Shown one piece after another: positions 10,124-16,614 of a stretch of 64,000 bases of DNA. Both the position numbers and the translations under genes were made by a program. How positions within the stretch are numbered: the first letter of the stretch is position 1; each line of letters begins with the position of its first letter. The notes beneath the pieces were generated by a model that did not search any database, was not told the DNA's origin, and worked only from the letters and a program-made list of their open reading frames with translations. The stretch comes from a virus, in IMG/VR virus record IMGVR_UViG_3300017917_001112, positions 1 to 64,000 of that record; one strand, given 5' to 3'.

Positions 10124-10708
10124 ATGCCTAGTGTGTTTTTAGTGAGCGACACGCACTTCGGACACGCAGGTGTTTGTAAATTTTTGCGTGAGGATGGAAG
10201 TAAACTTCGACCATGGGACAATTCAGAAGAAATGGACGAAGACATGGTTAAGAGATGGAACGAAACAGTAAAACCAACTGACAAAGTTTACCATCTAGGT
10301 GATGTTGTTATTAATCGCAAAGCATTAAACATTATGCGTAGATTAAATGGTGATAAAGTTTTGATTCGTGGCAACCATGACATCTTTAAAGATGAAGATT
10401 ATCGTCAACACTTTAGAGAACTTCGTGCATATCATGTGATGAACGGAATGATTCTTTCACACATACCTATTCACGCAGATAGTCTTGGTCGTTTCGGTGT
10501 CAACATTCACGGACATCTACATTCTGGTAGAGTTATGAGACAACCTGAAGGTAGATACGGAATTCCAATAATTGATGCAAGATATCATTGCGTTTGTGTT
10601 GAACAAACAGACTTTCGTCCGATTTTATTTGAAGATGTTATTCAAAGAATTAAAGACGAGGGTGGGGTTATTGGTTTTAGAAATGGTAATGGTCCCTGTA
10701 TAGATTAG
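10124..10708 (+). CDS. calcineurin-like metallophosphoesterase
   Basis: SDTHFGH, HLGDV, RGNHD, LSHIP, IHGHLH motifs. Confidence 0.92.
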   Translation: MPSVFLVSDTHFGHAGVCKFLREDGSKLRPWDNSEEMDEDMVKRWNETVKPTDKVYHLGDVVINRKALNIMRRLNGDKVLIRGNHDIFKDEDYRQHFRELRAYHVMNGMILSHIPIHADSLGRFGVNIHGHLHSGRVMRQPEGRYGIPIIDARYHCVCVEQTDFRPILFEDVIQRIKDEGGVIGFRNGNGPCID

Positions 10709-10973: not shown

Positions 10974-11048
10974 GGGCTGGTAGCTTAATGGTAAAGCAGC
11001 CGACTCATAATCGGTTGAGTGAGAGTTCAATTCTCTCCCAGCCCACCA
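10974..11048 (+). tRNA. tRNA(CAT), probably Ile2 (lysidine) type
   Basis: GCCGA-CTCATAA-TCGGT; GGGCTG acceptor; ACCA. Confidence 0.8.
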
Positions 11049-11062
11049 TTAATGGAGATAGT

Positions 11063-11596
11063 ATGAATCTAAACAATTTTGTAAAAGTTTATAATGTTGT
11101 GCCGAAAGATATATGTGAGTCGGTGATATTGTTATACGAGAATGATGAAGAGTGGAAAACACACAACTGGTATAACAATATTTCTGATGAAAAGAAAGCA
11201 CATCACACAAAGGAACTTGATGTCCTTTACAATAAAAATTTAGATGTTCTAAAACAATTTTTACAAAGTGCTTTACATAAATACTATGATGAGTTAAAAT
11301 TAAGTAACTTGGTAAGCAATCACAGTAATATAAGATTGAACAAGTATAAGACAGGAACTGTAATGTCAGAGCATTTTGATTTGATACGCAGAAATCCAAC
11401 AGATGGAATTCCTGTTCTTACATTTCTTGGCATACTAAATGACAATTTTAAAGGTGGACAATTTGTTTTAAACGGAGAGGTATTGAAATTAAAGCAAGGG
11501 GACATTATTATGTTTCCTTCTACGTTTCTATATCCGCATAGTGTAACAGAGGTAACAGAAGGAACAAGATATACATTTGTTGCTTGGGCATATTAA
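11063..11596 (+). CDS. 2OG-Fe(II) oxygenase
   Basis: HFD...LNDNFKGG...FPSTFLYPHSVTEVTEGTRY; start reassigned to MNLNNF (GGAG SD) because 10988 lies inside a tRNA. Confidence 0.88.
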   Translation: MNLNNFVKVYNVVPKDICESVILLYENDEEWKTHNWYNNISDEKKAHHTKELDVLYNKNLDVLKQFLQSALHKYYDELKLSNLVSNHSNIRLNKYKTGTVMSEHFDLIRRNPTDGIPVLTFLGILNDNFKGGQFVLNGEVLKLKQGDIIMFPSTFLYPHSVTEVTEGTRYTFVAWAY

Positions 11597-11777: not shown

Positions 11778-12266
11778 ATGAGATATAGAGAAAAAATCAA
11801 TATTCAAGAAGTCAGAGATTTCGTTGAACAATGTGATCCAACAACAAAGATTTACATTGGTTGTGACTCTGAGAGATATAAAGTTGGCAAACAATGGTAT
11901 GCTGACTATATTCTTGCTGTTGTTGTTCATATCAATGGTAACAATGGATGTAAAATTTTTGGTGCGGTTCAGAAAGAAATGGACTTTGATCAAAAATACA
12001 ATCGTCCACGTATGCGTTTAATGAATGAAGTGTACAAGGTTGCGGAACTTTACTTAGAGCTTGCTCAAGAAATTCCGAATGATATCGAAGTTCACTTAGA
12101 CATTAATCCGAATGAAAACTATGGTTCTTCATGTGTAATAAACGAAGCAGTTGGTTACATTCGTGGAATGTGTAATGTTGTACCTTTGGTAAAACCGAAC
12201 GCATTCGCAGCATCTTATGCTGCAGATCGAATGAAACATGTTGTTGATTTTAGAAAAAGTGCTTGA
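11778..12266 (+). CDS. RNase H-like YkuK (DUF458) family protein
   Basis: IYIGCDS...RLMNEV...IEVHLDIN...KPNAFAASYAAD. Confidence 0.8.
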   Translation: MRYREKINIQEVRDFVEQCDPTTKIYIGCDSERYKVGKQWYADYILAVVVHINGNNGCKIFGAVQKEMDFDQKYNRPRMRLMNEVYKVAELYLELAQEIPNDIEVHLDINPNENYGSSCVINEAVGYIRGMCNVVPLVKPNAFAASYAADRMKHVVDFRKSA

Positions 12267-12291
12267 CATTTAAACATGTATCAAGTATAAT
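12263..12291 (+). promoter_or_regulatory. sigma70-type promoter for RNAs 4-5 and the Ro60-like gene
   Basis: TTGACA-17bp-TATAAT. Confidence 0.85.
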
Positions 12292-12311
12292 ATGATTTGT
12301 AAATTGAGAAA

Positions 12312-12529
12312 AGGATGGGTGCAGCAAGTATAAATTACTTAATGCCGAATGCCAGACAGAGGAGGACCACCGAAAGGTGTATTTTAAAACTGGCTAGACA
12401 GAAAAGTTGAAGTAAATCTGACGCTGGAAAGACAGCAAGATGATAGTATCCTATCAGTTTTCAGTGGGGCTGTCCGAAAGGAGACACTGGGGTTAGAATA
12501 AACCAAGTTAACATCAACCCAACCATCCT
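12312..12529 (+). ncRNA. CAGCAA-stem RNA 4 (218 nt, multi-hairpin cargo)
   Basis: AGGATGG..TGCAGCAA...CCATCCT-GTT; inner hairpins include CACC-GAAA-GGTG, GCTG-GAAAGA-CAGC, TGATAG/CTATCA, CAGTG/CACTG. Confidence 0.75.
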
Positions 12530-12553
12530 GTTATTTTTTGTTATAGGAGTTTT

Positions 12554-12668
12554 AGAATAGGTTCAGCAACCAAAATTACTAACAGCGAAAGCTGTATCAA
12601 GGGGTCGGGTTCGCCTGACGACCTGAGTTTCGAGTTCTCAGGTAAAACAAAAAGTAGAAAACTATTCT
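12554..12668 (+). ncRNA. CAGCAA-stem RNA 5 (three-hairpin cargo)
   Basis: AGAATAG..TTCAGCAA...CTATTCT-GTT; ACAGC-GAAA-GCTGT, GTCGGG-TTCG-CCTGAC, ACCTGAG/CTCAGGT. Confidence 0.75.
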
Positions 12669-12684
12669 GTTAAATGAGGTAATT

Positions 12685-14103
12685 ATGAACACTTTTGTTT
12701 CTGCCGTACAAAATCAATCTGCACGCACAACTAACGGCATGCGTGCCCGTAAATCTACTGCGTCTGCTTGCGTAGACTTGTTCTTCAAGATCGGCGCATC
12801 TCGTGGTAAAGATATCACGAAAGACTTCGTTGCTGCTTATGTTGAGAATCGCGAAGTAGCATTGCGTATTGCGCAGTGGGTTCGTGACGCACGTGGTGGC
12901 GCAGGTGAACGTGACTTGTTCCGTCAAATCCTGAAGTATCTTGACAAGCATCAACCTGAAGATGCTGCTCTTCTGTTGAACAAAGTTCCAGAGATCGGTC
13001 GTTGGGATGACATCTTTGTCGTAGAGAAAAACAAGCCAAAAGCATTTACTATGCTGGGTGATGCTCTGCGTGAACGTAATGGTCTTGCTGCTAAGTGGAC
13101 TCCACGTCAAGGTAAGTTGGCTGTTGAAATCCGTAACTTCTTTGGTATGTCTCCAAAGTTTTACCGTAAGTCTTTGGTCGAACTGACTAAAGTTGTTGAA
13201 ACTCAGATGTGCGCAAAAGACTGGGATAACATCAACTTCAGCCATGTGCCTTCTGTTGCGTCTGCACGCTACAAGAAAGCATTTTACCGTAACACTCAAG
13301 AGTACGCAAAGTACGTTGCGGAATTGGTGAAAGATCCAAAAGACCGCACTATGGATGTGAAGGTAAACGCTGGTGCAGTATATCCATACGATGTACTGAA
13401 GGGTGTTGTTGGTCACTATGTGACTAACTTCAACAAGACAGAACTTGACCTTGTTGAAAAACAATGGGAAGCACTCGAAAACTTTGTTGGTGACGCAAAC
13501 GTGTTGCCACTGGTTGACGTGTCTGGTTCTATGTCTGTGCCTGTTGGTAAGAACGCAAACCTTTCTTGCCTTACTGTTGCTGTATCTCTGGGTCTATACC
13601 TAGCAGATAAAAACACAGGTAAGTTCAAGGACACGTTCTTGACTTTCTCTGGCTCACCAGAGTTGCTGCATCTGAAAGGTACAATCCTGCAGAAAGTGCA
13701 ACAAATGGTTAAGTCTAACTGGGATATGAACACTAACTTGGTGAAGGCGATGGATAAAATCCTGAAGACTGCCAAGGACGGTAACGTGCCTCAGGAAGAA
13801 ATGCCAGAAATGCTTCTGATTCTGTCAGACATGCAGTTCGATCAATGCGCAAAGTTTGACGACTCTGCGATGAAAATGATTGAACGTAAGTTCAACGAAG
13901 CTGGTTACGATCTGCCAAAGATCGTGTTCTGGAATCTGAATGCGCATGACAATGTGCCTGTGAAGTATGACACACGTGGGGTTGCTTTGGTTTCTGGATT
14001 CAGCCCAGCAATCATGAAAGCAGTTCTTGCTGGTGATACTGAACAGTTTACACCAGAAGCAATTATGCTGAAGGCAGTTATGGTGGATCGTTACGCCATC
14101 TAA
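12685..14103 (+). CDS. Ro60/TROVE-like RNA-binding protein with C-terminal vWA domain (DUF2828-type)
   Basis: RDARGGAGER, GRWDD, AAKWTPR, VPSVA, YPYD; MIDAS DVSGSM; LSDMQFD; IVFWNL; VSGFSP. Confidence 0.85.
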   Translation: MNTFVSAVQNQSARTTNGMRARKSTASACVDLFFKIGASRGKDITKDFVAAYVENREVALRIAQWVRDARGGAGERDLFRQILKYLDKHQPEDAALLLNKVPEIGRWDDIFVVEKNKPKAFTMLGDALRERNGLAAKWTPRQGKLAVEIRNFFGMSPKFYRKSLVELTKVVETQMCAKDWDNINFSHVPSVASARYKKAFYRNTQEYAKYVAELVKDPKDRTMDVKVNAGAVYPYDVLKGVVGHYVTNFNKTELDLVEKQWEALENFVGDANVLPLVDVSGSMSVPVGKNANLSCLTVAVSLGLYLADKNTGKFKDTFLTFSGSPELLHLKGTILQKVQQMVKSNWDMNTNLVKAMDKILKTAKDGNVPQEEMPEMLLILSDMQFDQCAKFDDSAMKMIERKFNEAGYDLPKIVFWNLNAHDNVPVKYDTRGVALVSGFSPAIMKAVLAGDTEQFTPEAIMLKAVMVDRYAI

Positions 14104-14152: not shown

Positions 14153-14965
14153 ATGACGGAAAGAACAGTAAAAGAAATATTTGATGAGCAGGGTTATTAT
14201 GGACCTGTTCGTTTTTTAGCAACACATAAAATTTATGAATATCAAACAGAAGTATATCGTTTGATGCGTGAGATGGATTGGATGAATACCGATTATCGTT
14301 GTAAAGCAAATGTTCTTTTCCCATTTATTAATGAGATATCAAAACAAATTGTAATTGTTGATTATGTAAAACAAATTCTTGGACCTAACTTTTCTTGTTG
14401 GGACACACTCATTTGGGTTAAAGATCCAGAGAGCGATAATTATGTTTCATGGCATCAAGATGCTACATATTGGAACTTCTTGCCAAAAGAAAGAGGATTG
14501 ACTGTTTGGGTAACTCTATCTGGGGCAACAAAAGAAATGGGTTGTCTTCAGTATGTTCCTGGATCACATAAACATGGGCAGAGAATGCATTCAGATATTA
14601 AGAATGATGAAAATTTACTTATGCGTGGACAAACAATTGATGAACATGATAAAGAAAATGTTGTTCATGTTGAGGCGAGACCAGGAACATTTATAATGCA
14701 TAATCCATTTATTGTTCATGGCTCAGATGCAAATCGTTCTCAAACACCAAGAGTTGCTATGGGTTTTATTTATGTTGCTACTGACGCAAAACCGATTGCT
14801 ACATTTTCTCCAGAATCAACTGTGATGGTTTCTGGTGTTGATGAATATAACTATATGTTACATGATCCAGAGCCAACAGGAAAATGGGAAGAGGATATTA
14901 AAGTTTGGAAACAAGCATATGATAGGCAGCACGACAATTACTACAAGATGGAACAAGTTTTCTGA
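14153..14965 (+). CDS. phytanoyl-CoA dioxygenase (PhyH) family 2OG-Fe(II) enzyme
   Basis: WHQDATYW, GCLQYVPGSH, HGSDANRSQTPR. Confidence 0.9.
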   Translation: MTERTVKEIFDEQGYYGPVRFLATHKIYEYQTEVYRLMREMDWMNTDYRCKANVLFPFINEISKQIVIVDYVKQILGPNFSCWDTLIWVKDPESDNYVSWHQDATYWNFLPKERGLTVWVTLSGATKEMGCLQYVPGSHKHGQRMHSDIKNDENLLMRGQTIDEHDKENVVHVEARPGTFIMHNPFIVHGSDANRSQTPRVAMGFIYVATDAKPIATFSPESTVMVSGVDEYNYMLHDPEPTGKWEEDIKVWKQAYDRQHDNYYKMEQVF

Positions 14966-15446
14966 TTGGCGTGATGCTGATATAAGTAAAACTAATGTTC
15001 TCAAACACATAAAATTACCAGCTACTTGTTTTCTCTCTGCGAATGCTTGGGGATTAAAAGGAAAACTTCCAGGAGGTAAACACTCTTGGATTGCTGAGTA
15101 TAATGGTTATACTTGGAAAACATTTGAGATCACCGATCGTGAAACAATAGAAGTTCAGCAAGCAAATATTCTCTTCTGCGAAAGAGACAATTATACTGAG
15201 AGACAGCTGATAGTTTCCGATCGTGATCCATCTACTCTCTGGTTTGGTAATCAACCAAGATTAGATGGTATCTTCAATTGGAAAGGTATAGAAGAATACT
15301 ATCCTCTCAACACAAACATCAATCTAGCGTTCAATAATTGTAACACATATTTGAGTTACATTGCTTGGCGTTATCATTTTAAATTGAAACTTCCATACAT
15401 CGGTTTCAAAGACAAGTCATTTTGGGAAAAGCATGAAATTAGATGA
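14835..15446 (+). CDS. hypothetical protein (true start probably further downstream)
   Basis: fills the gap between neighbours; HSWIA and NNCNTY could be a permuted papain-like His/Cys pair. Confidence 0.55.
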   Translation: MLMNITICYMIQSQQENGKRILKFGNKHMIGSTTITTRWNKFSDWRDADISKTNVLKHIKLPATCFLSANAWGLKGKLPGGKHSWIAEYNGYTWKTFEITDRETIEVQQANILFCERDNYTERQLIVSDRDPSTLWFGNQPRLDGIFNWKGIEEYYPLNTNINLAFNNCNTYLSYIAWRYHFKLKLPYIGFKDKSFWEKHEIR

Positions 15447-16614
15447 GTTGAATTTTCAATACTCTAAAGACAATCATTATCGTTGGGGTTGGGGCGATGA
15501 TGATACTGAATGGTTTAATGAACCAAATTACGAACAACCATTCAAGATGACGATTGGTAGATGCACAAGAAAGCCAAAGTCATTTCGCGAAGAATGCATT
15601 CTAGCAACAGAACATTTATGTACTCAATATGATAAGCCAATCTATGTTGGTTTGTCTGGTGGTCTTGATTCTCAGATTGTGTGTCTAACTCTACTAGAAC
15701 TTAAGATGCCATTTATACCATGTATTATTGTTATGGAAGATAATTATAATTTACACGATGTTCTAAACGCAAAAGAATTTTGTGAGAAATACAACTTAAA
15801 GTATAAAGTATTTAACATTAACATGGGCGAGTTTTATTCCAAATACTGCCCAGAGATTGTTAAGAAATATAAAATCACAAATGCAAGAACAACAATGCAG
15901 TTGTGGCTTGAACAGTTTACTAAAGATGGAATCTTTATTATGGCTGGTGGTGATATGCAACTTACCAGATATAAACTTGGAGAACCATCATATGATACCA
16001 CAGATGGATTGCTAATTAATCCTCTATCATCAACAGCCCCAATGACAAAATGCACATGGGGTTCTCATCCAACACCAATTTTACAACATCTTATTTCGCA
16101 AGGGGGAATGGGAACAACAAAGTATTTTATGTATAGTCCCGAACTAATTGCTTCTGTTGTTCTTAGTAAAGAAGTTGAATCATTCGTAAACATACAAGAC
16201 GTATTATACAGCACAGCATTAGTGCCACGTTCGAAGTTTTGGTTGTTGTATAACTACATTGCCAAATCGCAATTATATGCGAACAATTGGCCAGAGTTAA
16301 TTCTTCGACCAAAATATCATGGTTTCGAATTCGTCGAAAAGAATCTTGAATATTCGAAACTAAAGAAAGAAGCGATCGAAGAATATAGTAAAGAGAACGA
16401 CAAGAAAGGTATTTACATAGAGTACACAGAATTGAAGGAGTATTTTTCTTCGGTTGGACCACAGAAGATATGGTATAGTAATCCGTTGGTCAAACAAACT
16501 TCTTCGATCAAGGGTTTTATTGAGAGCATATCCCTCAGGGAACAAACGAAGAATGATTTGTTCGAAGATGAGGATTTATTGGATGAATATGAGGGTGGGG
16601 GTATTGACATTTAA
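15433..16614 (+). CDS. PP-loop (adenine nucleotide alpha-hydrolase-like) protein
   Basis: VGLSGGLDSQ motif; ends LRPKYHGFE. Confidence 0.65.
   Translation: MKLDELNFQYSKDNHYRWGWGDDDTEWFNEPNYEQPFKMTIGRCTRKPKSFREECILATEHLCTQYDKPIYVGLSGGLDSQIVCLTLLELKMPFIPCIIVMEDNYNLHDVLNAKEFCEKYNLKYKVFNINMGEFYSKYCPEIVKKYKITNARTTMQLWLEQFTKDGIFIMAGGDMQLTRYKLGEPSYDTTDGLLINPLSSTAPMTKCTWGSHPTPILQHLISQGGMGTTKYFMYSPELIASVVLSKEVESFVNIQDVLYSTALVPRSKFWLLYNYIAKSQLYANNWPELILRPKYHGFEFVEKNLEYSKLKKEAIEEYSKENDKKGIYIEYTELKEYFSSVGPQKIWYSNPLVKQTSSIKGFIESISLREQTKNDLFEDEDLLDEYEGGGIDI

What the first reader, a model, noticed from the sequence alone, without database searches (positions are those of the whole stretch)
12312..12529. 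218-nt multi-hairpin RNA at the head of the Ro60-like operon
Seen: within the shared handle about eight small helices radiate, including AAGTA/TACTT, GCCAG/CTGGC enclosing CACC-GAAA-GGTG, GCTG-GAAAGA-CAGC, TGATAG/CTATCA, CAGTG/CACTG enclosing TCC-GAAA-GGA, and GGTT/AACC. GNRA loops and high pairing density in AT-rich DNA with no ORF indicate a structured RNA that is not tRNA-derived. Inference: a scaffold or multi-site protein sponge.
Basis: partly seen in the sequence, partly recalled or inferred. Interest (0 to 1): 0.7.

Follow-up and report, generated by a model that had tools for sequence, protein, structure and literature searches.

The report
Pseudoknotted partner RNA of phage Ro60-like protein
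A lake phage makes a 216-base, tightly folded RNA just ahead of its gene for a ring-shaped Ro60-like protein; it is most likely one of that protein's partner RNAs, and its body is far larger and more elaborate than in any partner RNA described so far.

Summary
Window 12312-12529 (+) is a real, conserved, structured non-coding RNA. It follows a perfect sigma-70 promoter. 46 distinct relatives from viral and metagenome contigs keep nine helices: 96% of cells are paired, against 80% in shuffles and 30-41% when partners are slid. 28 of 43 pairs show compensatory changes. The pseudoknot joins the P7 loop to the 3' tail beside the closing stem. It was not in the model used to align the sequences.

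No Rfam family matches, and there is no tRNA likeness. The body was not found in 185,579 cellular genomes or in cultured phages.

The closing stem plus unpaired UnCAGCAA and a 3' UGUU is a "handle". The same handle appears 193 times on the gene strand upstream of the DUF2828/DUF7788 gene in related loci, and never on the opposite strand. The predicted fold of that protein matches only Ro60 structures over its full length.

Best reading: a Y-RNA analogue with a compact pseudoknotted effector body. A "multi-site sponge" is not supported. What the body binds is unknown. This scan has met the handle family in other genomes; this cargo is new.

The parts
12263..12291 (+). Sigma-70-type promoter TTGACA-17-TATAAT (12/12 match); expected start about 7 nt downstream, roughly 14 nt before the RNA's first paired base
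   Evidence: A comparable promoter sits 12-30 nt upstream of the RNA in 24 of 27 relatives.
12312..12532 (+). RNA1, probable mature span: A + GGAUGG ... CCAUCC + U, followed by GUU
   Evidence: The flanks UA before and UGUU after the stem are conserved across the handle family.
12312..12318 (+). P1 5' strand (closing stem of the handle)
   Evidence: Pairs with 12523-12529. Two positions covary: AU33/UA10 and AU20/GC20.
12320..12327 (+). Unpaired handle motif U-N-CAGCA-A; U and CAGCA are invariant
12326..12340 (+). P2, a weak AU-rich hairpin (AAGUA/UACUU). The motif aligned with the relatives' CUAAAG follows it at about 12338-12344 (CUUAAUG in the window)
   Evidence: Folding this segment alone in 24 relatives gives a hairpin in most, mean z = -1.8; the register varies.
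12351..12394 (+). P3 domain. Outer stem 12351-12355 with 12390-12394. Internal loop with near-invariant GGAGGA (12361-12366), opposite an A/U-rich strand. P3b 12368-12371 with 12376-12379, capped by a GNRA loop
   Evidence: All 9 pairs covary. GGAGG occurs in 88% of RNA1-type cargos and 5% of other handle cargos.
12397..12408 (+).
   Evidence: Pair types GU28/GC16/AU2; GC32/AU14; GC25/CG15.
12409..12423 (+). Conserved single strand J4/5: GAA-N-UAAAU-N-UGAC
   Evidence: Invariant positions listed.
12424..12435 (+). P5, the invariant 12-mer CUGGAAAGACAG (CUG/CAG stem, GAAAGA loop)
   Evidence: Identical in 46 of 46 distinct sequences, so pairing is neither supported nor refuted by covariation.
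12441..12456 (+). P6 hairpin (GAUAG-UAUC-CUAUC)
   Evidence: Four of six pairs have compensatory changes.
12462..12489 (+). P7 (12462-12466 with 12485-12489), with distal P7b (12474-12475 with 12480-12481, GNRA loop). The distal part is replaced by a GUUCAAUUG loop in one subgroup
12467..12470 (+). Pseudoknot 5' strand (GGG(G)), immediately after the P7 5' strand
   Evidence: Pairs with 12517-12520. Variants are GGG:CCC, GAGU:ACUC, GUUC:GAAC, GGU:ACC, GGC:GCC. The three core pairs are paired in 46 of 46 sequences. Not part of the covariance model.
12517..12520 (+). Pseudoknot 3' strand in the 3' tail, 2 nt before the P1 3' strand
   Evidence: Same as above.
12491..12504 (+). P8 hairpin (GGUU/AACC)
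   Evidence: Three of five pairs have compensatory changes.
12523..12529 (+). P1 3' strand
12530..12540 (+). Conserved GUU, then a U-run (GUUAUUUUUUG); possibly a partial terminator or a processing/3'-end signal
   Evidence: The U-run is missing in some relatives (L004, L032).
12554..12668 (+). Second handle RNA (different cargo), ending 16 nt before the start codon
12685..14103 (+). Ro60-like protein gene (DUF2828 + DUF7788, phrog_850)
   Evidence: Pfam and PHROGs. AlphaFold model with mean pLDDT 69.7; Foldseek ranks 1-10, 12 and 13 are all Ro60/TROVE structures.

Best explanation
RNA1 is a stable non-coding RNA of the 'CAGCAA-handle' family. This family is the Y-RNA analogue of a phage branch of Ro60-like proteins (DUF2828/DUF7788).

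Shown:
- It is transcribed from a consensus host-type promoter together with a second handle RNA and the protein gene.
- It folds into nine helices plus a pseudoknot, all conserved by compensatory change except the invariant P5.
- Its ends form a 7-bp stem, followed on the 5' side by unpaired U-N-CAGCAA and on the 3' side by UGUU. This is the same handle carried by many unrelated cargos beside this gene.

Inferred:
- The Ro60-like ring binds the handle, as Ro60 binds the terminal stem of Y RNAs.
- The 200-nt body is a compact effector or adaptor domain. Its pseudoknot packs P7 against the handle, so the body sits on the ring.
- Its invariant exposed elements are GGAGGA in the P3 internal loop, CUGGAAAGACAG, GAA-N-UAAAU and CUAG. 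They would be read by a second partner such as a host exoribonuclease (as in Ro60-Y RNA-PNPase particles), the small ribosomal subunit, or another protein.
- Because the last handle in each locus ends 16-21 nt before the start codon, protein binding may also damp its own translation.
For: Real RNA:
- Perfect promoter.
- Fold z = -3.46.
- A structure-blind MAFFT/RNAalifold alignment already gives 12 compensatory pairs out of 26.
- 46 distinct homologues are 96.0% paired, against 80.4% in shuffles and 30-41% when slid. 28 of 43 pairs change on both sides.
- The pseudoknot was found by an unbiased column-pair scan. It is 100% paired at its three core positions with three pair types, although it was absent from the model.

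Link to the protein:
- The DUF2828-like gene lies downstream on the same strand in 25 of 25 loci with enough sequence. This includes loci retrieved by DNA pattern alone.
- The handle occurs 193 times on the gene strand, 0 on the other strand, and 0.15 times in shuffles. 49 of 50 full-flank loci have at least one within 600 nt upstream.
- Handle RNAs also flank the homologous gene in Cronobacter S13, Ralstonia RSP15, BUCT-ZZ01, E. coli phage Alf5 and a mycobacteriophage.

Link to Y RNAs:
- The protein model matches only Ro60 structures over its full length (9kop E = 8e-9; 2nvo, 1yvr, 9nen).
- In the mycobacteriophage, a handle RNA carries a tRNA-like body that hits Rfam YrlA at 39.8 bits, E = 1.5e-7 in the local search.
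- Published phage Ro60 binds upstream Y-like RNAs and host PNPase (PMC12135203).

Modularity: a sister group keeps the P2-P3 and P7-P8-pseudoknot domains but swaps P4-P6 for an 80-100 nt insert.
Against: - No binding has been shown for any member of this protein family. Handle-protein contact rests on co-location and analogy.
- The handle lacks the published Ro60-binding motifs (GGUCCGA, GNCGAA; PMC4201824), and no Rfam Y RNA model matches RNA1.
- The protein has no Pfam TROVE hit and only E = 0.22 by sequence to a solved Ro60. Its model is of moderate confidence (pLDDT 69.7, TM about 0.5).
- In RNA1 the 3' strand next to the stem is used by the pseudoknot, unlike the A-rich strand of other handle RNAs. 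The docking surface may therefore differ.
- The partner of the body is entirely unknown.
- An RNase H-like (PF04308) gene is also often adjacent and could be the true binder or processor.
Confidence: 0.6

Rival explanations
1. Chiefly a cis-acting leader. The folded 5' UTR controls the operon, either as a protein-binding autoregulatory operator for the Ro60-like protein or as a ligand-sensing riboswitch whose P1 plus U-run acts as a terminator. It would not be a trans-acting RNP component.
For: - It lies between the promoter and the gene in every locus.
- P1 is followed by UGUUAUUUUUU in the window.
- In L004 the handle ends 21 nt before the start codon, with the ribosome-binding site directly after it.
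Against: - The same handle closes tRNA-like and minimal cargos inside tRNA arrays, far from the gene.
- In L169 two unrelated ORFs (2.2 kb) separate RNA1 from the gene.
- The U-run is absent in several relatives.
- No alternative terminator/antiterminator pairing was seen, and no riboswitch family matches.
- This reading is compatible with the best explanation as a secondary role.
Confidence: 0.15
2. Decoy or sponge. The body titrates a host factor. Candidates are a GGA-binding translational regulator of the CsrA/RsmA type, ribosomal protein S1 or the 30S subunit through the Shine-Dalgarno-like GGAGGA, or a host defence nuclease. The Ro-like protein would only stabilise the RNA.
For: - Invariant unpaired GGAGGA, and GGA within CUGGAAAG, lie about 62 nt apart.
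- The strong early-type promoter implies high copy number.
- Other cargos in the family display tRNA parts that look like decoys (unverified notes).
- A related protein in phage Bas63 counters the Ppl defence (PMC11482910). Homology of Bas63 gp130 itself was not checked; FelixO1-like phages do carry the family at about 38% identity.
Against: - Only two or three GGA sites, against many in known sponges.
- The loops carry no repeated motif.
- Conservation of the junctions and a pseudoknot indicate one specific fold, not a string of sites.
- No similarity to any E. coli RNA or to cellular genomes, so nothing identifies what it would mimic.
Confidence: 0.15
3. A self-contained functional RNA (ribozyme or aptamer) that uses the handle only as a processing or stabilising cassette shared with neighbouring RNAs, with no role for the Ro60-like protein.
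For: - Size, pseudoknot, GNRA loops and invariant junction nucleotides resemble small ribozymes and aptamers.
- Ornate RNAs of unknown function are known near phage tRNA genes (background knowledge: GOLLD, ROOL).
Against: - No ribozyme or riboswitch family matches, even at E <= 10.
- The hammerhead-like CUGA...GAAA stretch fails at required positions (G8 varies, A9 is C; read).
- Strict co-location of the handle with the protein gene across distant phages would then be unexplained.
Confidence: 0.05

Closest known systems
Ro60 (Rsr/TROVE2) with Y RNAs: bacterial and mycobacteriophage YrlA/YrlB (Rfam RF02553; Chen et al. 2014, PMC4201824) and Thermus phage phiLo Ro60 with Yrl1/Yrl2 (PMC12135203; PDB 9KOP, 9L5Y)
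   Same: - Several small RNAs are encoded beside, and on the same strand as, a ring-plus-vWA protein.
- The 5' and 3' ends pair into a stem next to a conserved unpaired motif, and the rest is a variable 'module'.
- The protein's predicted fold matches Ro60 structures.
- A family member in a mycobacteriophage has a YrlA-type tRNA-like body.
   Different: - The protein is DUF2828/DUF7788, with no Pfam TROVE hit.
- The handle motif is U-N-CAGCAA plus 3' UGUU, not GNCGAA or GGUCCGA.
- RNA1's body is about 200 nt, pseudoknotted and not tRNA-like. Described Y RNA modules are tRNA-like domains or simple loops in RNAs of roughly 80-130 nt.
- No Rfam Y RNA model matches.
- No binding data exist.
Class I RNAs of dictyostelid social amoebae (Kjellin et al. 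2021, PMC7919456)
   Same: - A short stem joins the 5' and 3' ends; its structure, not its sequence, is conserved.
- A conserved motif of about 11 nt lies next to the 5' strand.
- The ends are conserved (start AAG, end CUGU), as read in the paper. The phage handle starts UAGG and ends CCUGUU.
- The interior is variable.
   Different: - Class I RNAs are 42-65 nt, eukaryotic, and reported only from Dictyostelia, with an RRM protein (Rnp1A) as the known binder.
- The letters of their 11-nt motif are not in the searchable text. I recall them as CCUUACAGCAA, from memory and unverified.
- RNA1 is four times longer, with a complex body.
Large ornate phage-associated RNAs near tRNA genes (GOLLD, ROOL; background knowledge, both in Rfam)
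   Same: Phage-borne, located near tRNA arrays, elaborately structured, function unknown.
   Different: - No sequence or structure match.
- RNA1 is much smaller.
- RNA1 is built on a handle tied to a specific protein gene.

Membership tests
Y RNA / YrlA (Ro60 partner RNAs) | Encoded close to a Ro60 orthologue, on the same strand | tested here: met
   The gene lies 157 nt downstream in the window and 21-403 nt downstream in 24 of 25 relatives. The protein is Ro60-like by predicted fold but not by Pfam TROVE.
Y RNA / YrlA (Ro60 partner RNAs) | Terminal stem formed by the 5' and 3' ends, carrying the Ro60-binding motif (GGUCCGA in animals, GNCGAA(N)G in bacteria; PMC4201824) | tested here: not met
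   The terminal stem is present and covaries. The motif next to it is U-N-CAGCAA, not GNCGAA.
Y RNA / YrlA (Ro60 partner RNAs) | Match to the Rfam covariance models (RF00019, RF02553) | tested here: not met
   No hit in window 12200-12720, even at E <= 10.
Y RNA / YrlA (Ro60 partner RNAs) | tRNA-like module (defines YrlA) | tested here: not met
   No ARAGORN or Rfam tRNA signal inside 12312-12529. No loop fits a T-loop or an anticodon loop.
Y RNA / YrlA (Ro60 partner RNAs) | Physically bound and stabilised by the Ro60 protein | not testable with these tools
   Needs immunoprecipitation or a gel-shift assay.
CAGCAA-handle RNAs beside DUF2828 genes (defined by this scan; I found no publication) | A 6-7 bp covarying closing stem preceded by UA and followed by UGUU | tested here: met
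   Window: uaAGGAUGG...CCAUCCUGUU. Consensus from 156 distinct handles.
CAGCAA-handle RNAs beside DUF2828 genes (defined by this scan; I found no publication) | Unpaired U-N-CAGCAA directly after the 5' strand | tested here: met
   12320-12327 is UGCAGCAA. C, G, C and the following A are 100% conserved and the first A of CAGCA 90%.
CAGCAA-handle RNAs beside DUF2828 genes (defined by this scan; I found no publication) | Co-location with a DUF2828/phrog_850 gene | tested here: met
   Also seen in five cultured phages of different families.
Dictyostelid Class I RNAs | Short terminal stem, conserved ends (AAG...CUGU), 11-nt motif by the 5' strand | tested here: inconclusive
   The architecture and end letters agree with the paper's text. 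The motif letters could not be read from the text, and no Rfam hit was obtained.
Dictyostelid Class I RNAs | Length 42-65 nt; found in Dictyostelia | tested here: not met
   RNA1 is 216-221 nt and is carried by a phage.
Protein-sponge RNAs (CsrB/RsmZ type) | Many copies of one short binding motif displayed in hairpin loops | tested here: not met
   The loops differ from one another. Only two or three conserved GGA elements are present, one of them in an internal loop.
Riboswitch / transcription attenuator | Match to a known aptamer class, or mutually exclusive terminator/antiterminator folds | tested here: not met
   No Rfam match. No + strand terminator hairpin lies between 12529 and 12684. 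The U-run is not conserved. Alternative folds were not searched exhaustively.

The most novel reading that the evidence does not exclude
The phage Ro60-like ring is a programmable particle whose target is set by interchangeable RNA cargos on a common handle. RNA1 would then be a new class of compact pseudoknotted adaptor RNA. It would dock the ring onto a specific host machine, for example the 30S subunit through its invariant Shine-Dalgarno-like GGAGGA, or an exoribonuclease. That would let the phage remodel or destroy host RNA early in infection.
Probability: 0.25. Interest if true: 0.85.

Novelty: new variant of a known kind. Interest (0 to 1): 0.62.

Why it matters
Ro60 and its Y RNAs are conserved from bacteria to humans, yet what the variable part of a Y RNA does is known in very few cases.

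In this system one handle carries many different bodies. RNA1 is, as far as I could find, the largest and most intricately folded of them:
- It has a covariation-proven pseudoknot next to the docking stem.
- It has invariant exposed motifs that must be read by something.
- A sister form swaps one domain.

That makes the question 'what does the Y RNA body recruit?' directly testable. One can express the promoter-RNA-protein cassette, pull down the RNA, and mutate single motifs.

It also adds a well-supported new structured RNA family (46 distinct sequences). I found it only in viral and environmental metagenome contigs, and it could be deposited in Rfam.

Tried and rejected
Searches that found nothing for RNA1:
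- Rfam at gathering threshold on the whole window, and at E <= 10 on 12200-12720. Only chance-level hits appeared (RAGATH-34, snoR9, SCARNA7), all far below their cut-offs.
- megablast and blastn against cultured phages, and blastn against all complete E. coli genomes.
- Two motif scans of 185,579 cellular genomes, one for the P3b-to-P5 pattern and one for the P5-P6 pattern. Both returned zero hits. This gives no sign that the body copies a cellular RNA, but short or structural mimicry would be missed.

Motif ideas checked by eye on the alignments and rejected:
- Hammerhead core: required positions vary.
- Kink-turn or C'/D' K-loop at CUGA...GAUGAU: conflicts with the covarying P6.
- Kink-turn in the P3 internal loop: no GA after a 3-nt bulge.
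- T-loop in the GUUCAAUUG variant of P7: those bases form the pseudoknot instead.
- Sarcin-ricin-like GAGGACC: a 7-mer likeness only.
- 11-nt GAAA receptor: the strands are not opposed.
- A mini-ORF after GGAGGA: neither spacing nor frame is conserved.

Further tests:
- No further long-range pairing beyond the pseudoknot survived a scan of all column pairs with 46 sequences.
- GGAGG is not enriched in other cargos.
- Neighbour genes do not single out RNA1. The RNase H-like PF04308 gene is commoner beside RNA1-type loci (17/23 against 15/57), but it also occurs without RNA1, and the loci are related to each other.
- Literature searches for DUF2828, YrlA with phage, and Ro60 with phage-encoded RNAs found no description of this RNA.

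Complex prediction was not used, because it does not take RNA.

Full report
**Setting.** The window is the first 64 kb of a 165,256-bp virus record with direct terminal repeats. It carries a tmRNA and 28 tRNA genes. The finding lies between an RNase H-like gene (PF04308, 11778-12266) and a 472-codon gene (12685-14103). That gene has Pfam domains DUF2828 and DUF7788 and belongs to PHROG 850, 'RNA-binding protein'.

**Observation.**
- A 12/12 sigma-70 promoter (TTGACA-17-TATAAT, 12263-12291) precedes the element.
- The 218-nt stretch folds to -60.5 kcal/mol, z = -3.46 against dinucleotide shuffles. The opposite strand scores similarly, so energy alone does not fix the strand.
- No Rfam family matches, even at E <= 10, and there is no tRNA signal.
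- A 31-codon frame begins at the ATG inside GGATGG. Relatives break it.

**Homologues and structure.** I collected relatives in three ways:
- The protein retrieved 80 related loci from IMG/VR. BLASTN found the RNA upstream of the gene in 13 of them.
- A structure-blind MAFFT alignment of 13 sequences already gave 12 compensatory pairs among the 26 predicted by RNAalifold.
- I built a covariance model from four close sequences with a hand-drawn structure, then a second model from 27 hits. I added loci found only by conserved DNA patterns in viral and metagenome contigs.

The final alignment has 57 hits, 46 of them distinct. The counts are:
- 96.0% of cells form standard pairs, against 80.4% after shuffling partners and 30-41% when partners are slid by 1-3 columns.
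- 28 of 43 pairs have changes on both sides.
- Every helix covaries except P5, which lies in the invariant 12-mer CUGGAAAGACAG.
- Frequent G-U pairs fix the + strand.

Because this alignment was fitted to the model, the structure-blind result and the pseudoknot below are the cleaner evidence.

**Pseudoknot.** I scanned all column pairs outside the model. The only stacked signal was between the bases just after the P7 5' strand (12467-12470) and the 3' tail (12517-12520), two bases before the closing stem. The variants are GGG:CCC, GAGU:ACUC, GUUC:GAAC, GGU:ACC and GGC:GCC. The three core pairs are paired in 46 of 46 sequences, with three pair types at two positions. This helix was never in the model. 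It shows that the RNA is a compact fold and not a set of free hairpins. It also explains the 'T-loop-like' GUUCAAUUG seen in one subgroup.

**Anatomy in the window.**
- P1: 12312-12318 with 12523-12529.
- Unpaired UGCAGCAA: 12320-12327.
- P2: 12326-12340. It is weak and its register varies.
- P3: 12351-12355 with 12390-12394. It encloses an internal loop with GGAGGA and P3b with a GNRA loop.
- P4: 12397-12408.
- Conserved strand GAA-N-UAAAU-N-UGAC.
- P5: 12424-12435.
- P6: 12441-12456.
- P7/P7b: 12462-12489.
- P8: 12491-12504.
- Tail with the pseudoknot strand, then UGUU and a U-run.

A sister group (L002, L005-L007, L010, L012, L017, L035) keeps the P2-P3 and P7-P8-pseudoknot domains. It replaces P4-P6 with an insert of 80-100 nt. 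The body is therefore itself modular.

**Context.**
- In 25 of 25 loci with enough sequence, the DUF2828-like gene follows on the same strand. The gap is 21-403 nt in 24 of them. In one lineage (L096/L169) the gap is 2.2 kb and holds two unrelated ORFs.
- A near-consensus promoter lies just upstream in 24 of 27 loci.
- The closing stem with U-N-CAGCAA and 3' UGUU is a shared handle. A regular-expression scan of the 80 loci finds 193 on the gene strand, none on the other strand, and 0.15 in shuffles. 49 of 50 full-flank loci have at least one within 600 nt upstream of the gene.
- The cargos range from 47 to 315 nt, and most are unrelated to RNA1.
- Handle RNAs, but not the RNA1 body, also sit beside the homologous gene in five cultured phages: Cronobacter phage S13, Ralstonia phage RSP15, phage BUCT-ZZ01, E. 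coli phage Alf5 (FelixO1-like) and mycobacteriophage OhShagHennessy.
- In the mycobacteriophage, the middle handle RNA hits Rfam YrlA at 39.8 bits (below the cut-off of 69) through its tRNA-like body.

**The protein.**
- Sequence search of solved structures gives only E = 0.22, to the Thermus phage Ro60.
- An AlphaFold model from 21 homologues has mean pLDDT 69.7.
- In Foldseek against the PDB, ranks 1-10, 12 and 13 are all Ro60/TROVE structures: phiLo Ro60 (E = 8e-9, TM 0.53), Deinococcus Rsr, and Xenopus and human Ro60. Isolated vWA domains follow.
- The family is very large. There are at least 7,972 clusters in the protein collection and 711 phage records, including mycobacteriophage proteins annotated 'Ro-like RNA binding protein'.

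**Interpretation.** Together these results place RNA1 in a Ro60/Y-RNA-like system with a different handle motif. Three points are inferred and not shown:
- that the ring binds the handle;
- that the body recruits something;
- that binding near the ribosome-binding site feeds back on translation.

Published precedents are Ro60-Y RNA-PNPase particles, including one assembled by a phage Ro60 with host PNPase (PMC12135203; PMC4201824). A FelixO1-like phage protein with Ro60-like structure counters the Ppl defence (PMC11482910). I did not check that exact protein.

The perfect host-type promoter suggests early expression. This is an inference from the behaviour of T4-type early promoters.

**What the body is not.**
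- It has no detectable relative in 185,579 cellular genomes, in E. coli or in cultured phages.
- I found it only in about 46 distinct sequences from viral and environmental metagenome contigs.
- It lacks repeated loop motifs, so a classical sponge is unlikely.
- Several 3D-motif ideas failed on inspection (see Tried and rejected).

**Earlier notes of this scan.** Follow-ups on other genomes reached the same Ro60-partner reading for the handle family, and they pointed to the Class I RNAs of social amoebae. I confirmed from the paper that Class I RNAs share the short terminal stem, the conserved ends AAG...CUGU and a motif next to the 5' strand. I could not read the motif letters. The handle family is therefore not new to this scan. 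The RNA1 body, its pseudoknot and its domain swap are the new content here.

**Verdict.** Class: a new variant of a known kind (a Y-RNA-like partner RNA) with an unprecedented body.

Noticed in passing
window 11778-12266: An RNase H-like (PF04308, YkuK-type) gene sits directly upstream of RNA1. A homologue lies within 2.5 kb of the Ro-like gene in 32 of 80 related loci, sometimes downstream. It is commoner in RNA1-type loci (17/23) than in others (15/57), but the loci are related to each other. It could process or bind the handle RNAs.
   Followed up: partly
window 15433-16614; L169:6494-7672 (-): A protein of about 392 aa with a PP-loop signature (SGGxDS) lies near the Ro-like gene in the window. 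A protein of similar size with the motif LNYSGGSDS lies between RNA1 and the gene in L169. The two show no BLAST similarity. Two 2OG-Fe(II) oxygenase genes (10988-11596, 14153-14965) and a metallophosphoesterase gene (10124-10708) are also in the island. This suggests RNA modification or repair.
   Followed up: partly
L206 (Escherichia phage Alf5) 4255-4320, 4421-4478, 4876-4942, 4962-5087: Four unannotated handle RNAs (AGACC...ACAGCAA...GGUCUGGU) lie among the tRNA genes just downstream of the phrog_850 gene of a FelixO1-like coliphage. Their tail is UGGU instead of UGUU. This fits the guess in PMC11482910 that some 'tRNA' genes of Bas63 are Y RNAs.
   Followed up: partly
L205 (Mycobacterium phage OhShagHennessy) 3461-3514, 3528-3649, 3663-3708: Three handle RNAs lie downstream of the 'Ro-like RNA binding protein' gene, none annotated. 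The middle one is the sub-threshold YrlA hit (39.8 bits).
   Followed up: yes
L202 (Cronobacter phage S13) 4396-4638 and 4654-4788: Two oversized 'tRNA' annotations (121 and 113 nt, one labelled tRNA-OTHER) are followed by a handle RNA (AGGAUGCCUACAGCAA...GCAUCCUGUU) downstream of the phrog_850 gene.
   Followed up: no
window 12380-12389 and the same place in relatives (A3 columns 98-107): The 3' strand of the P3 internal loop is an A/U-rich palindrome in most members: GUAAUUAC in many, UUUUAAAA in the window. It could allow RNA-RNA dimerisation, but such palindromes are common in A/U-only sequence.
   Followed up: no
window 12508-12537: A weak promoter-like site (TTAACA-18-TATTTT with TG) overlaps the 3' end of RNA1. 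It might give RNA2 and the gene a second start.
   Followed up: no
A6 columns 6 and 17 (window 12318 and 12329): The last 5' base of P1 (G/A) also covaries with a U/C in the 5' strand of P2 (93% pairable). This is unexplained; it may be an alternative pairing or shared ancestry.
   Followed up: no
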